Assembly (NCBI RefSeq): GCF_006345805.1
Contig: NC_042999.1
Span: forward strand, 62,620,001 to 62,684,000
Reading direction: 5' to 3'
From: Octopus sinensis
Taxonomy: Eukaryota
Length of the DNA: 64,000 nt
The position numbers were made by a program, and so were the translations under genes. This document shows, piece by piece, positions 8,736 through 37,387 of this stretch (position 1 is the stretch's first letter; each line of letters starts with the position of its first letter). The notes under the pieces were generated by a model. It ran no database searches and was not told where the DNA came from. It was given only the letters and a program-made list of their open reading frames with translations.

Positions 8736-8950
8736 TATCCTTTCTACTGAAGGCACAAGGCCTGAAATTATGGGGGAGAGGACTAATCAATTACATTGAA
8801 CCCAGTATTTCACTGGTACTTATTTTATCAACCCCAAAAGGATGACAGGCGAAGTCGACCTCAGTGGAATTTGAACTCAGAACACAAGGACAGATGAAAT
8901 GCTGATAAGCATTTTGCCTGGCATGCTAGCAAATCTGCCAGCTCGCCTCC
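8540..8950 (-). mobile_element. two SINE family A copies separated by (AAT)n
   Basis: GGAATTTGAACTCAGAA B-box-like motif twice (about 8582 and 8866). Confidence 0.75.
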
Positions 8951-9124
8951 TTAATAATAATGATGATGATGACGATGATGATATGTATGTATACATATAA
9001 ATATATATATATACATAAGGGACTAAAGCCATCTGAATATGGCTAGGGACAGGGCAGGGTGGTGGGGGTGTTACTGTTGCATTTAGCCCCAGGCGAACAT
9101 CGACGTCGCCAGATAGGCTTGACA

Positions 9125-9174
9125 CCACACATTGATGATAGGCAATACACCTTGAAACCATGGTCCGTGTGTGG
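9125..9174 (+). ncRNA. type I hammerhead ribozyme motif (copy 1; U3 variant, first stem I pair mismatched)
   Basis: CCACACA-UUGAUGA-UAGGCAAUACACCUU-GAAA-CCAUGG-UC/CGUGUGUGG; predicted cut after C9165. Confidence 0.7.
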
Positions 9175-9485
9175 TTTCCGCTTCATCGGGGAATTATCTC
9201 CCTTTGCAGGTTAAAGGACACCGTGATGGTGTCAAGCCTATCTGGCGACGTCGATGTTCGCCTGGGGCTAAATGCAACAGTAACACCCCCACCACCCTGC
9301 CCTGTCCCTAGCCATATTCAGATGGCTTTAGTCCCTTATGTTATGGAGCAGTTACTGTCTATATCTCATTTAGAGAATTATTATTGCTGTCGAACAGATT
9401 TTCGAAATCAGCAAATGTATTTTGCTTGAAAATCTATATATGAATATCCTGCAGAGTGAGATTTCGTCGAGGAAGCGGGGGCCTA

Positions 9486-9535
9486 CCACACGTTGATGAT
9501 AGGCAATACACCTTGAAACCATGGTCCGTGTGTGG
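9486..9535 (+). ncRNA. type I hammerhead ribozyme motif (copy 2)
   Basis: CACACG/CGUGUG stem I, UUGAUGA, stem II AGG/CCU, GAAA, palindromic ACCAUGGU, GUC cut after 9526. Confidence 0.78.
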
Positions 9536-9747
9536 TTTCCGCTTCATCGGGGAATTATCTCCCTTTGCAGGTTAAAGGACACCGTGATGGTGTCAAGCCT
9601 ATCTGGCGACGTCGATGTTCGCCTGGGGCTAAATGCAACAGTAACACCCCCACCACCCTGCCCTGTCCCTAGCCATATTCAGATGGCTTTAGTCCTTTAT
9701 GTTATGGAGCAGTTACTGTCTATATCTCATTTAGAGAATTATTATTG

Positions 9748-9793
<46 letters not shown>

Positions 9794-9854
9794 TAACAGA
9801 ATGAGATAAAAATCCAAGGCTGTGAAAGATTTCAGAACATTTATAAAGAGAAAG

Positions 9855-9900
9855 TCTTACAGCTGTTTCCAGGATATTTTATGTATCCCTTCATTGGAGA
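9855..9900 (-). ncRNA. hammerhead motif, probably inactivated copy (CCAAUGA)
   Basis: UCU-CCAAUGA-AGGGAUA..UAUCCUG-GAAA-CAGCUG-UA-AGA; G5 changed to A. Confidence 0.55.
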
Positions 9901-10130
9901 TGGCGTGAGAAAATGGTTAAGCAATAGTTATTCTAGATAAGATATGAAATAGAGAGTGAAGTGGAGGAATGAAAATAGACGTGAGATATGCAGGGATATT
10001 GTATCTACAGTTCCATTATTTAGGCAGAATGGTATACATATAAGATTCCTGTACCTTGTGTGTATTTAAAATTGGTCATTCCAAGCATAGAGTTTGTAAA
10101 CGGTGTTATTGAATTGTTTTATACATATGA

Positions 10131-10209
10131 GCGGTTTAGCTTAATTGGTTCAGTGCACCGCGACGCATAATCACGGAGGTGTGAGTTCGAGTCTCATAGC
10201 CGGCCGCCA
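10131..10209 (+). tRNA. tRNA-Met(CAT)-like module (repeat-embedded, probably not a functional tRNA)
   Basis: A box TAGCTTAATTGG, anticodon arm CCGCGA-CGCATAA-TCACGG, T arm GTGAG-TTCGAGT-CTCAT, ends GCCGCCA followed by T6. Confidence 0.6.
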
Positions 10210-10348
10210 ACACTTTTTTCTGCAAAATAGGGGTAGCTTATCCTGTCCAGGCTATATGATTAGCATTATCCTGCATTTGAGAATTTAAAATCACTTCTTT
10301 AACTTTCTAAGACATCTCAACACTTCTAAAGCAAACTTCTTTTATCTA

Positions 10349-10420
<72 letters not shown>

Positions 10421-10478
10421 CAGAATGAGATAAAAATCCAAGGCTGTGAAAGATTTCAGAACATTTATAAAGAGAAAG

Positions 10479-10524
10479 TCTTACAGCTGTTTCCAGGATA
10501 TTTGATGTATACCTTCATCGGAGA
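10479..10524 (-). ncRNA. minimal hammerhead motif with CCGAUGA core
   Basis: UCU-CCGAUGA-stem II-GAAA-CAGCUG-UA/AGA; palindromic ACAGCUGU stem III. Confidence 0.65.
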
Positions 10525-10743
10525 TGGCGTGAGAAAATGGTTAAGCAATAGTTATTCTAGATAAGATATGAAATAGAGAGTGAAGTGGAGGAATGAAAAT
10601 AGACGTGAGATATGTATCTACAGTTCCATTATTTAGGCAGAATGGTATACATATAAGATTCCTGTACCTTGTGTGTATTTAAAATTGGTCATTCCAAGCA
10701 TAGAGTTTGTAAACGGTGTTATTGAATTGTTTTATACATATGA

Positions 10744-10822
10744 GCGGTTTAGCTTAATTGGTTCAGTGCACCGCGACGCATAATCACGGAGGTGTGAGTT
10801 CGAGTCTCATAGCCGGCCGCCA
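10744..10822 (+). tRNA. tRNA-Met(CAT)-like module, second copy
   Basis: Identical to 10131-10209. Confidence 0.6.
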
Positions 10823-10961
10823 ACACTTTTTTCTGCAAAATAGGGGTAGCTTATCCTGTCCAGGCTATATGATTAGCATTATCCTGCATTTGAGAATTTA
10901 AAATCACTTCTTTAACTTTCTAAGACATCTCAACACTTCTAAAGCAAACTTCTTTTATCTA

Positions 10962-11013
<52 letters not shown>

Positions 11014-11260
11014 CAATATTTTATAATTACAAATATAATTATAATTAGGGTTCACCAAAGATTTGCTTTACCACATACTGAAGTTTAGAAATAGCAGCCA
11101 AAGAACCTTAGCTATTTCTTCTACTATAAGAAGAGACTCCCGGACAAAAACAAAATGGTTCTTTTTCATGCCGAATTCTACTTGGTGAAATTATTGATTA
11201 CTAGTTAATTAATTAATTTTACCCTTTATTATTATTGATATATGTATATATATATATAAC

Positions 11261-12345
11261 AACTGGAAAAGATACCTCGATGACTGTTTCATCATCTGGG
11301 ACAAAGGCATAGAGAAACTTGAGGAATTTAAAATTCTATTAAATGGAATAAATGACAATATACAATTCACGATGGACCACAACGAAAAAGAATTACCATT
11401 TTTAGACATCCTCATTAAGAAAACCGGCAACAAAATAGAGACAGATATCTACTATAAACCGACAGACTCTAAACAGTACCTACCCTTTGATTCATGCCAC
11501 CCACGACACACTAGAATGAATGTCCCTTTTGTTTAGCTAGAAGGATTTGCACCATAATATCAGACACAAACACCCGACACACACGTCTCCAGGAACTTAG
11601 AACCACACTCACAAATAGAAACTATCCACAGCCCCTAATAGACAGTGCAATCCAACGGGTACTTAAATTAAGTATAGAAGACCTGAGACAAACAAAACCA
11701 AAAAAGAAAGAACAATTAAAAACCCTTCCCTACATCTCTACACACAACCCACTCAACAATGAGGCCTTCAACACCATACTACAAAGCACAGCCCTACTAA
11801 AGGGAGACCCAAAGATGAACCGGATCCTCGAAACACACACCATCATTAAAAGTAAACGGCAACCAAAATCCTTGAAAAGGATTTTAACCCAAGCTACACT
11901 GCACTCAACATCAACCACAAAACCAGCAGTTAGAAAATGTGGAAGGCCCAACTGCGGAATCTGTGTCATCTTGAAAGAAGGATCAGAATTTATACTGGAA
12001 CAAGGCCACCAGTTCACCATCAGAACAAACTTCACCTGCGCATCAGAAAACTTAATTTACGTCATAACATGTGCAGGCTGCAATAGGCAGTATATAGGCC
12101 ATACAAAAAATAGCTTACGTAACAGGATGGCGATGCATAAATCACAAATTAGAAACCCTGATTACTGCAAAATACCGGTCAGCGGACACATAGATAGATG
12201 TGCTGGAAATGTAAATCCGAAATTTACAACTAACCCGCTCTATAAATTCAGTGACAACGCAACCTTCACACAACGCCAAAATAAAGAACTATATTTCATA
12301 AAAAAATTTAGACCAAGTTTAAACACCCTGGGCCAGGAATACTAA
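11261..12345 (+). pseudogene. PLE reverse transcriptase + GIY-YIG endonuclease, one frameshift near 11530
   Basis: NWKRYLDDCFIIW, IQFT..LPFLDI, IYYKPTDSKQYL..SCHP, CGRPNCGIC knuckle, NLIYVITCAGCNRQYIGHT..LRNRMAMH..ELYFI..PSLN. Confidence 0.92.
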
Positions 12346-12509
12346 AACAAAAGATAAGTCCTCCGAAAAGGAGAACCAAATTTCACCACGGCCGCTACTT
12401 CAAACAGACACTCACTCTGACGAAATATGCCTTAGTAAAAAAGGAAAAGAATTCTTTCGTGCAAATCTGACCCTGATACATACGATACAGCTAAGGGTCA
12501 GACCCGATT

Positions 12510-12885
12510 CTGATTGGTCAACAAGTTGATGACGTCTAGCTCTGCTAGAATGGACAGGATACAAACAGGGGACAGTCATTAGTCAGAATATTGATGACGT
12601 CCTTTTCTGCTTGGATAGTCACCTAACAAGTACAGACAGGGGGCAGATCTAATGTAGCTATAAGTCGTGATTGGGCAGAATCTGGATGACGTCCCGCTAT
12701 GCTTGACTAACGAAGCGACTGGTCAAGACAGGAAACAAACAAGAGGGAGTTATAATGCAGCGATTGGTCAAAATAATGATGACGTCCCGTTCCACTTGAT
12801 TAAAGCCACCTAACGAAACGATTGGTCAAAACATTGATGACGTCACGCTACGCTAGATTGACCACCTAACAGGCATTATAAAACC
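12510..12885 (+). promoter_or_regulatory. array of five inverted-CCAAT + CRE composite sites ending in a TATA-like box (PLE internal promoter candidate)
   Basis: ATT(G/A)G-N11-12-TGACGTC at about 12513, 12578, 12670, 12763 and 12821; TTATAAAA at about 12876. Confidence 0.6.
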
Positions 12886-17925: not shown

Positions 17926-18017
<92 letters not shown>

Positions 18018-18091
18018 TATATGTGTGTGTGTGTGTGAGTGTGTATGTGTGTGCTTGTGTGTGTGTGTATAAATTCACATCACATACACAC

Positions 18092-18126
<35 letters not shown>

Positions 18127-18128
<2 letters not shown>

Positions 18129-18930
18129 GGATGTGGTGAATAAATTGTCGTCTGAATTACACAAAAATGAAAATAACACTGACATCTCATTTTAACAGAT
18201 ATATTTACCAAAATTACATAAAAATATCTTGAAATACTAAAGAATAAATTTATTCAATAAAATCACCATTGGCTTCAACCACAGCCTCCAGACGACTTTG
18301 GAATCTCCTGCAACTCTTCTGGATGGTCTCCTTGTTTAAGTTGGTGAATGCTGCCATAATTATTGCCTTCAGTTCCTCTTTGGTGTTACTAGAAGTTTTG
18401 TTAGTCTCTCACTCAAATGCGCCCCACACATAATAATCAAAGGGGGTGCAGTCTGGGGAGTTGGATGGGCAGATGTTAGGGGTGACAGAGATTGTCTGAC
18501 AACCACGACTGGGTTCTCCTGTTTGTATGGCATGGTTCAGAGTCCTGTTGCCATATATAGGGTCTTCCAGCAGTCACCCTCTTGATCCAGGGCAGCACTA
18601 CCTCCTCCAGGCACTTGGTGTAGACCTCCATGTTGAGTTAGAGGCTGTGTGGGAAGATGAATGGAGGCATAACATCGCCACCACTGGTGATCACTCCAAA
18701 CACCATGATGTTGACTGGATGTTTGATTTTTATCACTCTCGATACATGTTTTGGGGACACAGCAAGCCAATGGTTGTTGTGTGTTCACCATCTGATCCTG
18801 GCAGAAATTTTTCTTGTCTGAGAAAAACCAAAGCATGTTCGGTTGGAGGGGATGCTTCAGTTTGTTTAAAGGCTTTATAGTGCAGCCTTTCCTCTTGTCC
18901 TTGATGGCTTGGGATAAAAATTGGTCCTTT
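18127..18930 (-). mobile_element. Tc1/mariner-superfamily decayed transposon
   Basis: Minus strand PSNSPDCTPFDYYVWGA third-Asp motif; WFFSDKKNF first-Asp region; terminus in (TA)n. Confidence 0.75.
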
Positions 18931-33139: not shown

Positions 33140-34195
33140 TTAGTAGTTTTATTTTTATAGCGTGCTTTCACTTCACTACCGAGCGCAGCTCTGTGTGCCT
33201 TGGGTATGTGCTGTGGTTTGTTGAGATGTTCTTATGGTTACTGTATTGAAAATGTTTTGCATAGGATGTGTGCAGTGTCCAGTATATATATTTGTAAGTC
33301 CTGGTGTTTTTGTTATGTATTTGTCTGAATATTTTTTTATCATATCTAATGCGCCTACTATGATAGGAATTGTTTCTGTTTTTAGATTCCACATTCGAGT
33401 TACCTCTATTTCCAGGTCTTTGTATTTTGAAAGTTTTTCCATTTCTTTTAGGGAAACGTTGTCATCTGCTGGTATTGATACATCAATTAGAAAGCATTTT
33501 TTTCTTCATGATCTCTGACAACTATATCTGGCCTATTGGCCTTAATTTCTCTATTTGTGTGTATAGGCATATCCCAAAGTATGGTTGCTTTCTCGTTTTC
33601 TGTGACCTTTTCTGGTGTGTGCTTATACCATCTTTTTTCTGTTGTTATTCCATAGTGTTGGCATAGCTTCCAGTGTCTGTGAATATAGTCCTTCTTAGCC
33701 AGGATTGGGTTGCCAGAGATAATATGATTTATTGTTTCTTGTCCATCTCCACATATTCTGCAGTTAATTGTTATGTTTCTTTTCATTATATGTTTTGGGT
33801 AATTTCTGGTGGGGAGGCTTTGGTCTTGTGCTGCAATTAAAAATCCTTCCATCTCTGCTTTGAGTCCTGAGCTTCTCAACCATTGCTGGGATTTTTCTCT
33901 GTCTATTTCTTTTGCATTTAGTTTAGTCCAGTATTTGCCATGAAGGGGCTTTTCTTGCCATCGTTTTATCATGGTCCATTGCTGTTCTAGTTTTAGTTTG
34001 GTTTTCCGTTGTTTTATAGCTTTTGTTGTTTCTTCTTCTTCTCCATATTTGTTAGGTAGTTTGATTTCTTGTTTGTATTTGTCAGCTTCCTTAAATACTG
34101 AGAACAGTTTTTTGTTTTGCGGCTATTTGTATCAGTTTTCCTTGCTTCTGAAGTAGGTATTTTTGCAGTCCTAATACCCACAATTCCATGCTGTA
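33140..34195 (-). mobile_element. R4/Dong-like restriction-endonuclease LINE, 3' part, decayed
   Basis: WQEKPLHG, AAQDQSLPTR, CRICG..ETINHIISG, ANRPDIVV, EKLSKYKDL; embedded in (TAA)n at both ends. Confidence 0.85.
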
Positions 34196-36680: not shown

Positions 36681-36822
36681 CTGTAAATGTAATATATGAC
36701 AATCATTCGGTAGCCATGATAAAACTCTGAGTTTTGAATGTTGGGGTGGATTTCCACCCCAACATCTGAAACTCAGAGTTTTATCATGGCTACCAAATAA
36801 TTGTCACATATTACATTTACAG
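36681..36822. repeat. near-perfect 142-bp hairpin
   Basis: Centre TTGGGGTGGA-TT-TCCACCCCAA. Confidence 0.85.
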
Positions 36823-36920
36823 GTATATGTATAAATATTTATGTGTATATAAGAATTTTTTGCATAATAAGATAAAAAAACCATGGCTGTGTAGATATTA
36901 GAGCATTTATAGATAGAAGG

Positions 36921-36970
36921 TCTTACAGCTGTTTCTAGGATATTTATTAATTATATCCCTTCGTCGGAGA
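36921..36970 (-). ncRNA. minimal hammerhead motif with CCGACGA core
   Basis: UCU-CCGACGA-AGGGAUAU..AUAUCCUA-GAAA-CAGCUG-UA/AGA; diverged relative of 10479-10524. Confidence 0.65.
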
Positions 36971-37387
36971 TCATTATCATCATCATCATCATCATCATCA
37001 TTTAACGTCTGTTTTCCATACTGGCATGGGTTGGGTGGTTTAAGAGGAGCTGGCCAGCTAGGGTGCTGGCCAGACTCCAATTGTTTGTTGCACCAGCTGT
37101 TTTACGGAGTGTGTTGCATGCTTTTTATGTACCACTGGCAAAGGTGCATTTCTGTTGCACCAGCATGAGTGCATTTTATGTGGCACCAGCACCTGTAAAG
37201 GATAAGCCTGTATGTATGTATATCTCTAAGACCGTTATATCCAGTTTCAATTCTCATCTATACTTCTTTCATTTAACTCACACTTCTGCTTACATCAACA
37301 AGTAAACCATTGGCATCTCAGAATCTCATCTCCACTCCTGTGTTTAATTTAAAACACTGTGCCTTTATATATATATATATATATATA

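What the first reader, a model, noticed from the sequence alone, without database searches (positions are those of the whole stretch)
9451..9568. Extended stem I of about 35 bp and a highly self-paired monomer
Seen: GCAGAG-T-GAGATTTCGTCGAGGAAGCGGGGGCCTACCACACG upstream of the core pairs imperfectly with CGTGTGTGGTTTCCGCTTCATCGGGGAATTATCTC-C-CTTTGC downstream. The unit has further hairpins (AGCCAT/ATGGCT; AGATTTTC..AGCAAA/TTTGCT..GAAAATCT). Inference: after cleavage these arms would hold the monomer ends together for ligation, and the bulge could contact loop II. G-U pairs and bulges suggest selection at the RNA level rather than a DNA palindrome.
Basis: partly seen in the sequence, partly recalled or inferred. 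Interest (0 to 1): 0.7.

Follow-up and report, generated by a model that had tools for sequence, protein, structure and literature searches.

The report
Retrozyme-type repeat with variant hammerhead
The long RNA stem is real and belongs to a hammerhead-like self-cutting motif in a 361-base, many-copy mobile repeat of an animal genome, a kind already known from many animals; the one oddity is that its catalytic core departs from the textbook sequence, and neither cutting nor RNA circles have been shown.

Summary
9451-9492 pairs with 9527-9568 in 36 base pairs (39 out to 9448/9571; 5 G-U). Hairpin z = -7.0 and circular monomer z = -4.4, each better than all shuffles. The interior without the arms is only weakly structured (z = -2.1). 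The stem is helix I of a type I hammerhead-like motif in a 361-bp unit. It is present as 1.73 tandem copies plus a 115-bp inverted 5' copy inside (AT)n, the footprint described for Penelope-like insertions; a Penelope RT/GIY-YIG fragment lies 1.5 kb away. Contigs of four public runs show a many-copy family. Its arm variants mostly keep the stem, and a two-base change keeps the helix III palindrome. It works like a metazoan non-LTR retrozyme, for which self-paired circles and protein-mediated ligation are published. The departure is in the core: both copies here carry C3U, a sister subfamily carries U4C, and the consensus core was not seen in the contigs laid. This locus is probably a crippled copy. 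Cleavage, expression and circles are untested. Verdict: variant of a known kind, modest interest.

The parts
8984..9012 (.). AT-rich microsatellite flank (left target side)
   Evidence: no TSD can be defined in it
9013..9127 (-). Inverted, truncated copy of unit positions 9227-9341; shares 4 bases (9124-9127) with the start of the direct copy
   Evidence: 115 nt, 100% complementary to 9227-9341 and 99% to 9588-9702
9124..9484 (+). First 361-bp period of the tandem (starts inside stem I)
   Evidence: 9124-9388 = 9485-9749 with 2 differences in 265
9124..9165 (+). Hammerhead-like motif 1, 5' arm cut down to 8 nt, A9131 opposite C9166 at the base of helix I; predicted cut after 9165
9166..9526 (+). 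Predicted monomer between the two cut sites (45.7% GC, no ORF of 120 aa or more)
   Evidence: release not shown
9166..9210 (+). 3' arm of stem I, copy 1 (pairs with 9448-9492 in the monomer or circle)
   Evidence: 39 pairs, mean P 0.98
9217..9233 (+). 6-bp hairpin
   Evidence: P 1.0; variant 9218 A>G keeps a G-U pair
9310..9327 (+).
   Evidence: P 0.97; common variant 9315 T>C breaks its loop-closing pair
9396..9435 (+).
   Evidence: P 0.56-0.57
9448..9492 (+). 5' arm of extended stem I, with 3-nt side of the internal loop at 9484-9486
9493..9499 (+). Core positions 3-9 with U at position 3 (C3U, G8 kept)
   Evidence: sister subfamily has C at both 9493 and 9494
9500..9514 (+). Helix II: U-U at the base, 3 pairs, 7-nt loop
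9515..9526 (+). G12-A13-A14, palindromic 8-nt helix III (9518-9525), C17 at 9526 (predicted cut after it)
   Evidence: linked variant 9521/9522 keeps the palindrome
9527..9571 (+). 3' arm of extended stem I, copy 2
9485..9749 (+). Second, partial period (265 bp); last 47 bp (9703-9749) lie beyond the reach of the inverted copy, like the one-sided tail of Penelope-like insertions
   Evidence: an X15 contig also runs into (AT)n at the same unit position 9388 (table 7)
9749..9790 (.). (TA)21 flank (right target side)

Best explanation
A non-coding, non-autonomous retroelement that works like a metazoan non-LTR retrozyme. Shown: a 361-bp tandem unit carrying a type I hammerhead-like fold whose helix I is extended to 36-39 bp, a many-copy family, and a Penelope-type insertion footprint. 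Inferred: tandem transcripts of intact source arrays are cut at each unit junction, slowly and mainly as a double hammerhead through the 8-nt palindrome. The long arms clamp the 5'-OH and cyclic-phosphate ends of the released 361-nt monomer, a host RtcB-type ligase closes it, and Penelope RT/endonuclease copies it, more than once round, into (AT)n. The weak core and dimer-dependent helix III would keep the finished circle from re-opening. This particular locus is an inserted daughter copy and probably yields little or no monomer.
For: Stem and monomer stability against shuffles. Unit size, GC and tandem layout match the published class (150-450 bp, GC under 50%; PMC7229834). U-U at the base of helix II and a 2-bp helix III with tetraloop match axolotl HHR_Amex2. 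3099 and 2629 contigs of runs X1 and X2 were laid on 8900-9900 (which includes 110 bp of a neighbouring repeat), with summed depth 1e4-7e5 along 9138-9613 against 14-71 for single listed contigs; this shows many copies but is no copy number. Of 7 listed substitutions in the arms, 2 are at unpaired sites and 2 keep the pair by G-U exchange. The other 3 break it at fixed register, all in one 10-nt segment: 9462A (with or without 9558C) is absorbed by sliding the 2-nt bulge, and 9461T comes with a 1-nt insertion at equal depth (slide read by hand). Two loose ends in X2 (after 9460 and after 9184) differ from the window on both arms, yet 16 of the 17 letters pair in one register (table 7, read by hand). 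9521 and 9522 change together and keep the palindrome (40830 of 68550 and of 63775 in X2). The double-hammerhead structure equals the cofold minimum (-111.2, against -94.2 for two single active folds). Inverted 5' copy, partial tandem, one-sided tail and (TA)n target are described for Penelope-like elements. A Penelope RT/GIY-YIG fragment lies at about 11213-12345.
Against: Core position 3 is U in both copies; in a mutational scan all single mutants in this motif had low activity (PMC9901934 passage). No Rfam hammerhead model scores it, even at E 10. No two-sided compensatory change at fixed register among the 7 tabulated arm substitutions, and linkage of 5'- and 3'-arm variants in one molecule is not shown. 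Outside the arms several frequent variants break predicted pairs (9315, 9340, 9345, 9366). The energy gain on dimerising (-4.2) is not specific to the palindrome: 32 of 144 non-palindromic permutations gained as much. In a transcript of this locus the inverted copy pairs with 9227-9341 (P 0.98) and the ends-clamping pairing has P 0.0. 8 of 9 predicted Xenopus retrozyme dimers did not cleave in vitro.
Confidence: 0.72

Rival explanations
1. A Penelope-dependent non-autonomous repeat whose hammerhead no longer cuts. The stem and core relic are kept as a fold recognised by the Penelope RT, or as recent inheritance, and copies arise from uncut linear transcripts, with no circle.
For: Both subfamilies seen have a non-consensus core and the consensus core was not seen; single changes in this motif give low activity; most predicted frog retrozymes tested did not cleave.
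Against: G5, A6, G8, A9, G12-A14, U16.1 and C17 have no listed variant in four runs, and the palindrome is kept through a two-base change. U4C is a natural variant that still supports viroid infectivity (PMC3088659 passage).
Confidence: 0.17
2. The unit is the pseudo-LTR of an autonomous Penelope-like element, and this locus is a 5'-truncated insertion holding only terminal repeats.
For: [quoted passage not shown]
Against: Penelope hammerheads in animals are mostly minimal, with short helix I and long helix II; this one has canonical proportions. No similarity to the 3' end of the Penelope fragment next door (best E 0.73). The unit is head-to-tail with no coding sequence between the hammerheads.
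Confidence: 0.08
3. The long stem is a decaying DNA inverted repeat (MITE-like or cruciform), and the hammerhead likeness is chance.
For: Stronger hairpins occur elsewhere in the window (5 of 1278 windows); the minus strand also folds (z -4.9); no Rfam match.
Against: The arms end exactly at core position 2.1 and at 1.1 after GUC, enclosing all other core motifs in order. It has 5 G-U and 0 A-C oppositions, and as DNA it folds far less well (-29.8). Variants keep the pairing through bulge shifts.
Confidence: 0.03

Closest known systems
Metazoan non-LTR retrozymes (Cervera and de la Pena 2020, PMC7229834; parts 2-4 of 6 of the text and passages read; supplement not readable)
   Same: Type I hammerhead fold once per tandem unit; unit 361 bp (mussel 350-390, axolotl 330-350); GC under 50%; non-coding; stable self-paired monomer; Penelope elements in the same genome; U-U at the base of helix II with 2-bp helix III as in HHR_Amex2.
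   Different: Core is C3U here and U4C in a sister subfamily, with the consensus core not seen in the contigs laid. The predicted circle misfolds the core, whereas most published animal circles are predicted to leave it free. No RNA evidence here. I could not compare helix I length with published figures (figures and supplement not visible).
Penelope-like element insertions and pLTR-derived retrozymes (Craig et al., bioRxiv 10.1101/2021.04.23.441226, passages; Li, Clavereau and Pollet, bioRxiv 10.64898/2026.07.22.740005, parts 1-3 of 5)
   Same: Partial tandem, adjacent inverted 5'-truncated copy, one-sided tail, (TA)n target.
   Different: No ORF; tail 47 bp against 30-40 bp given; this locus fails Li et al.'s 'active' criterion of two consecutive complete hammerheads; partner Penelope family not identified.
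Dimeric type I hammerheads of newt satellite DNA and repeat-type animal hammerheads (PMC4209133 parts 1-2 of 4; PMC3088659 section 8 and passages; PMC6155905 passages)
   Same: 6-bp helix I followed by an internally looped extension; short palindromic helix III able to form a double hammerhead.
   Different: Published natural changes at position 3 are mostly paired with A8 (U3-A8); here G8 is kept, giving a U-G wobble.

Membership tests
Non-LTR retrozyme | Tandem unit of about 150-450 bp | tested here: met
   361-bp period, 1.73 copies
Non-LTR retrozyme | GC below 50% and non-coding | tested here: met
   45.7% GC; no ORF of 120 aa or more over 9013-9749
Non-LTR retrozyme | Multi-copy family in the genome | tested here: met
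   Thousands of variant contigs and very high summed depth in X1 and X2; no second copy within the window; no genome held
Non-LTR retrozyme | Type I hammerhead topology once per unit | tested here: met
   Motifs at 9132 and 9493, 361 apart; open helix I
Non-LTR retrozyme | Two consecutive complete hammerheads at the locus (Li et al. 'active' criterion) | tested here: not met
   Copy 1 keeps only 8 nt of its 5' arm, with A opposite C at the helix base
Non-LTR retrozyme | Expressed as linear and circular monomer RNA | tested here: inconclusive
   No holder on record as RNA; only contigs were available, which cannot show ends or circles
Non-LTR retrozyme | Penelope-like elements in the same genome | tested here: met
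   GIY-YIG E 2.7e-06; 12 full-length-size relatives at E 1e-10 or better, 10 of 12 with the RT domain PF00078
Non-LTR retrozyme | Absence of LTR, PBS and PPT; larger TSD when present | not tested
   PBS and PPT not searched; TSD cannot be defined in (AT)n flanks
Hammerhead ribozyme (consensus) | C3 of the C3-G8 pair | tested here: not met
   U at 9132 and 9493 with G8 kept; where C3 is present, position 4 is C
Hammerhead ribozyme (consensus) | G5 A6 N7 G8 A9, G12 A13 A14, A15.1-U16.1, H17 | tested here: met
   9495-9499, 9515-9518, 9525-9526; no listed variant at these positions
Hammerhead ribozyme (consensus) | G10.1-C11.1 closing pair of helix II | tested here: not met
   U-U at 9500/9514; a tolerated natural variant per PMC3088659 section 8 and HHR_Amex2
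Hammerhead ribozyme (consensus) | Match to an Rfam hammerhead model | tested here: not met
   None at gathering score or at E up to 10
Hammerhead ribozyme (consensus) | Loop 1 / loop 2 tertiary contact | not testable with these tools
   Spacing fits (6-bp helix I, 4-position helix II); contact itself needs probing or mutants
Hammerhead ribozyme (consensus) | Self-cleavage after H17 | not testable with these tools
   Needs in vitro transcription
Penelope pLTR minimal hammerhead | Short helix I (4-5 bp), long helix II (7-8 bp), unpaired base between 9 and 10.1 | tested here: not met
   Helix I 36-39 bp, helix II 3 bp plus U-U (definition)

The most novel reading that the evidence does not exclude
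An animal retrozyme family that has spread to high copy number with weakened hammerheads: two subfamilies, each one step from the consensus core (U3-G8 wobble, or U4C), with the consensus form absent, while the catalytic guanosines, the dimer palindrome and a ~38-bp end clamp stay under selection. Slow, dimer-only cutting plus the clamp would then be how the circle avoids re-linearising, which PMC7229834 names as unexplained for animal retrozyme circles. Not found in print in my searches, which cover only the open-access library.
Probability: 0.25. Interest if true: 0.55.

Novelty: new variant of a known kind. Interest (0 to 1): 0.33.

Why it matters
The stem and the self-paired monomer are what the published retrozyme model predicts, so the finding as written is ordinary. 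Two points are worth keeping. Consensus-based searches would miss this family: no Rfam model scores it, and descriptors fix position 3 or 4. It also offers a natural pair of core variants on one scaffold, with which to test whether attenuated, dimer-dependent cleavage is what keeps animal retrozyme circles closed.

Tried and rejected
No whole genome is held, so copies could not be collected or aligned and R-scape-type covariation could not be run. A family-specific core pattern gave 0 matches in viral contigs and 2 in metagenome contigs; both lie in unrelated phage-like coding DNA with no stem I or helix III and were dropped. Rfam: nothing at gathering score over the window; only tRNA and chance matches at E up to 10. 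Expression: no RNA holder listed; 20 of 24 listed runs hold part of the stretch, none on record as RNA. I laid 4 of the 24; two are RNA by guess only (X15, X16) and were used only as a source of sequence variants, not as evidence of transcription. The dimer energy gain as proof of a role for the palindrome was rejected by its own control (32 of 144). No homology between the unit and the neighbouring Penelope 3' end. Pfam found nothing on the RT-side piece 11213-11533. Tandem Repeats Finder did not list the 361-bp period. Earlier scan notes: none by sequence, by place, or for two word sets. Lunse et al. 2016 (PMC5785218) is not held, and the supplement of PMC7229834 could not be read; either may already show such core variants or this host's family. 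I searched papers with 'octopus' and 'cephalopod' because the window's repeats recall Octopus genomes to me; that is recalled, not tested, and no retrozyme report for them came up.

Full report
Setting. The window is AT-rich (28-42% GC by 2-kb bins), full of microsatellites and nearly free of long ORFs: animal-type DNA. No whole genome is held. The repeats recall Octopus genomes to me; that is recalled and untested.

Observation. 9445-9575 folds at -61.8 kcal/mol, z -7.0, 0 of 200 shuffles as good; 5 of 1278 windows of equal length in this 64 kb fold as well. With the hammerhead core constrained, 9451-9492 makes 36 pairs with 9527-9568, 5 of them G-U, and the helix continues to 9448/9571. The proposed monomer 9166-9526 folds as a circle at -116.7, z -4.4, 0 of 300, with 59% of bases paired, and the 39 arm pairs have mean probability 0.98. 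Two results temper 'highly self-paired': the interior without the arms gives z -2.1 (9 of 300), and the minus strand also folds well (z -3.7). Of the named side hairpins, 9310-9327 is firm (P 0.97) and 9396-9435 is marginal (P about 0.57).

Anatomy. The stem encloses, in order: core positions 3-9 (9493-9499), helix II (U-U, three pairs, 7-nt loop), G12-A13-A14, an 8-nt palindromic helix III and GUC with C17 at 9526. The same motif lies 361 bases upstream. 9124-9388 equals 9485-9749 at 263 of 265 positions, and 9013-9127 is a perfect inverted copy of 9227-9341. The whole 737 bases sit between AT microsatellites. Partial tandem, adjacent inverted 5'-truncated copy, one-sided tail and (TA)n target are described for Penelope-like insertions (passages); the tail here is 47 bp. 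One contig of X15 runs into (AT)n at the same unit position as this element's right end. A frameshifted Penelope fragment lies at about 11213-12345: Pfam GIY-YIG and 12 relatives of 489-772 aa, 10 of them with an RT domain.

Family and variation. 20 of 24 listed runs, from 12 studies and six organism labels, hold part of the stretch. I laid four. X1 and X2 give thousands of contigs and summed depth of 1e4-7e5 along the unit, so the family has many copies, though depth is no copy number. Seven substitutions are tabulated in the 84 arm positions. Two are at unpaired sites and two keep a pair (9459, 9479). Three break a pair at fixed register (9197, 9461, 9462), all in one segment beside the 2-nt bulge. 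Read by hand, 9462A lets 9461-9462 pair with 9556-9555 and moves the bulge to 9557-9558, where the 9558C change then falls; 9461T comes with an insertion at equal depth. Two X2 loose ends differ from the window on both arms and still pair at 16 of 17 letters (table 7, by hand). Against this: no two-sided change at fixed register is tabulated, linkage between arms is not shown, and interior variants at 9315, 9340, 9345 and 9366 break predicted pairs. The stem has 5 G-U and 0 A-C oppositions (p 0.03), and the plus strand folds 12.7 kcal/mol better than the minus. RNA-level constraint is thus moderately supported, not proven.

The core. Both window copies have U at position 3 with G8 kept. In X1, 100240 of 104016 summed depth has C at both 9493 and 9494 (same depth, 6 contigs each), i.e. 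C3 with U4C. In X2 about 2% does (1161 of 49206; 1170 of 53272), and X15 has one contig of each kind. The equal depths leave no visible share for the consensus core, with the caveat that contigs drop rare variants. No variant is listed at G5, A6, G8, A9, G12-A14, U16.1 or C17. Positions 9521 and 9522 change together and keep the palindrome (18859 and 18605 of 148408 in X1; 40830 in X2). Published data say single changes in this motif give low activity (PMC9901934 passage). U4C is a natural viroid variant that is slow in vitro yet viable (PMC3088659 passage), natural U3 is usually paired with A8, and U-U at the base of helix II is tolerated. No Rfam hammerhead model scores the motif.

Mechanism. 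The single active fold lies 6.4 kcal/mol above the minimum (-47.1 against -53.5), and in the circle helix II has P 0.08. The double-hammerhead structure equals the two-strand minimum (-111.2, against -94.2 for two single active folds), but the net gain on dimerising is not specific to the palindrome (32 of 144 permutations as good). Published retrozyme monomers self-ligate at 1-3% and are closed by RtcB at 30-80% (PMC7229834), so a protein ligase is the likelier closer. All of this is inferred; no cleavage or RNA was shown. At this locus hammerhead 1 has lost most of its 5' arm, and the inverted copy would sequester 9227-9341 (P 0.98), with the clamp pairing at P 0.0: probably a crippled daughter copy.

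Comparison and verdict. It works like a metazoan non-LTR retrozyme, and meets the tests of unit size, GC, topology, copy number and Penelope co-occurrence. It fails the consensus-core test, so I file it as a variant, not a plain member. Highly self-paired monomers are stated for the whole class, and earlier notes of this scan list similar elements in other animals (unchecked), so the finding as written is expected. The non-consensus cores were not found in print, but a key paper and a supplement could not be seen. Interest 0.33; the novel reading has probability 0.25 and interest 0.55 if true.

Noticed in passing
window 9791-10958: Two tandem copies (97.5% identical over 555 bp) of another high-copy repeat between (TA)n runs. 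Each carries a tRNA-Met-like module on + (10129-10209, 10742-10822). On the minus strand the second copy has a minimal Penelope-type hammerhead-like motif at 10521, with a U4C core and 8-nt palindrome; the first copy's core is degenerate.
   Followed up: partly
window 36863-36971 (-): 81%-identical fragment of the same repeat, with a minimal hammerhead-like motif at 36967 (U4C core, 7-bp helix II, same palindrome).
   Followed up: partly
window 11213-12345 (+) and 12417: 5'-truncated, frameshifted Penelope-like RT/GIY-YIG fragment, followed by a consensus hammerhead core with a 10-nt palindrome but weak helices at 12417 and by short imperfect repeats at 12512-12870.
   Followed up: partly
window 33487-33972 (-): ORF with a weak zf-RVT match (E 4e-4, below the Pfam cut-off), probably a LINE remnant.
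   Followed up: no
window 36701-36831 and 18001-18131: The strongest 131-nt hairpins of the window (-81.5 and -68.8 kcal/mol), folding on both strands like DNA inverted repeats.
   Followed up: no
L001 and L002: Near-identical phage-like contigs that matched the search pattern by chance; unrelated to the element.
   Followed up: yes
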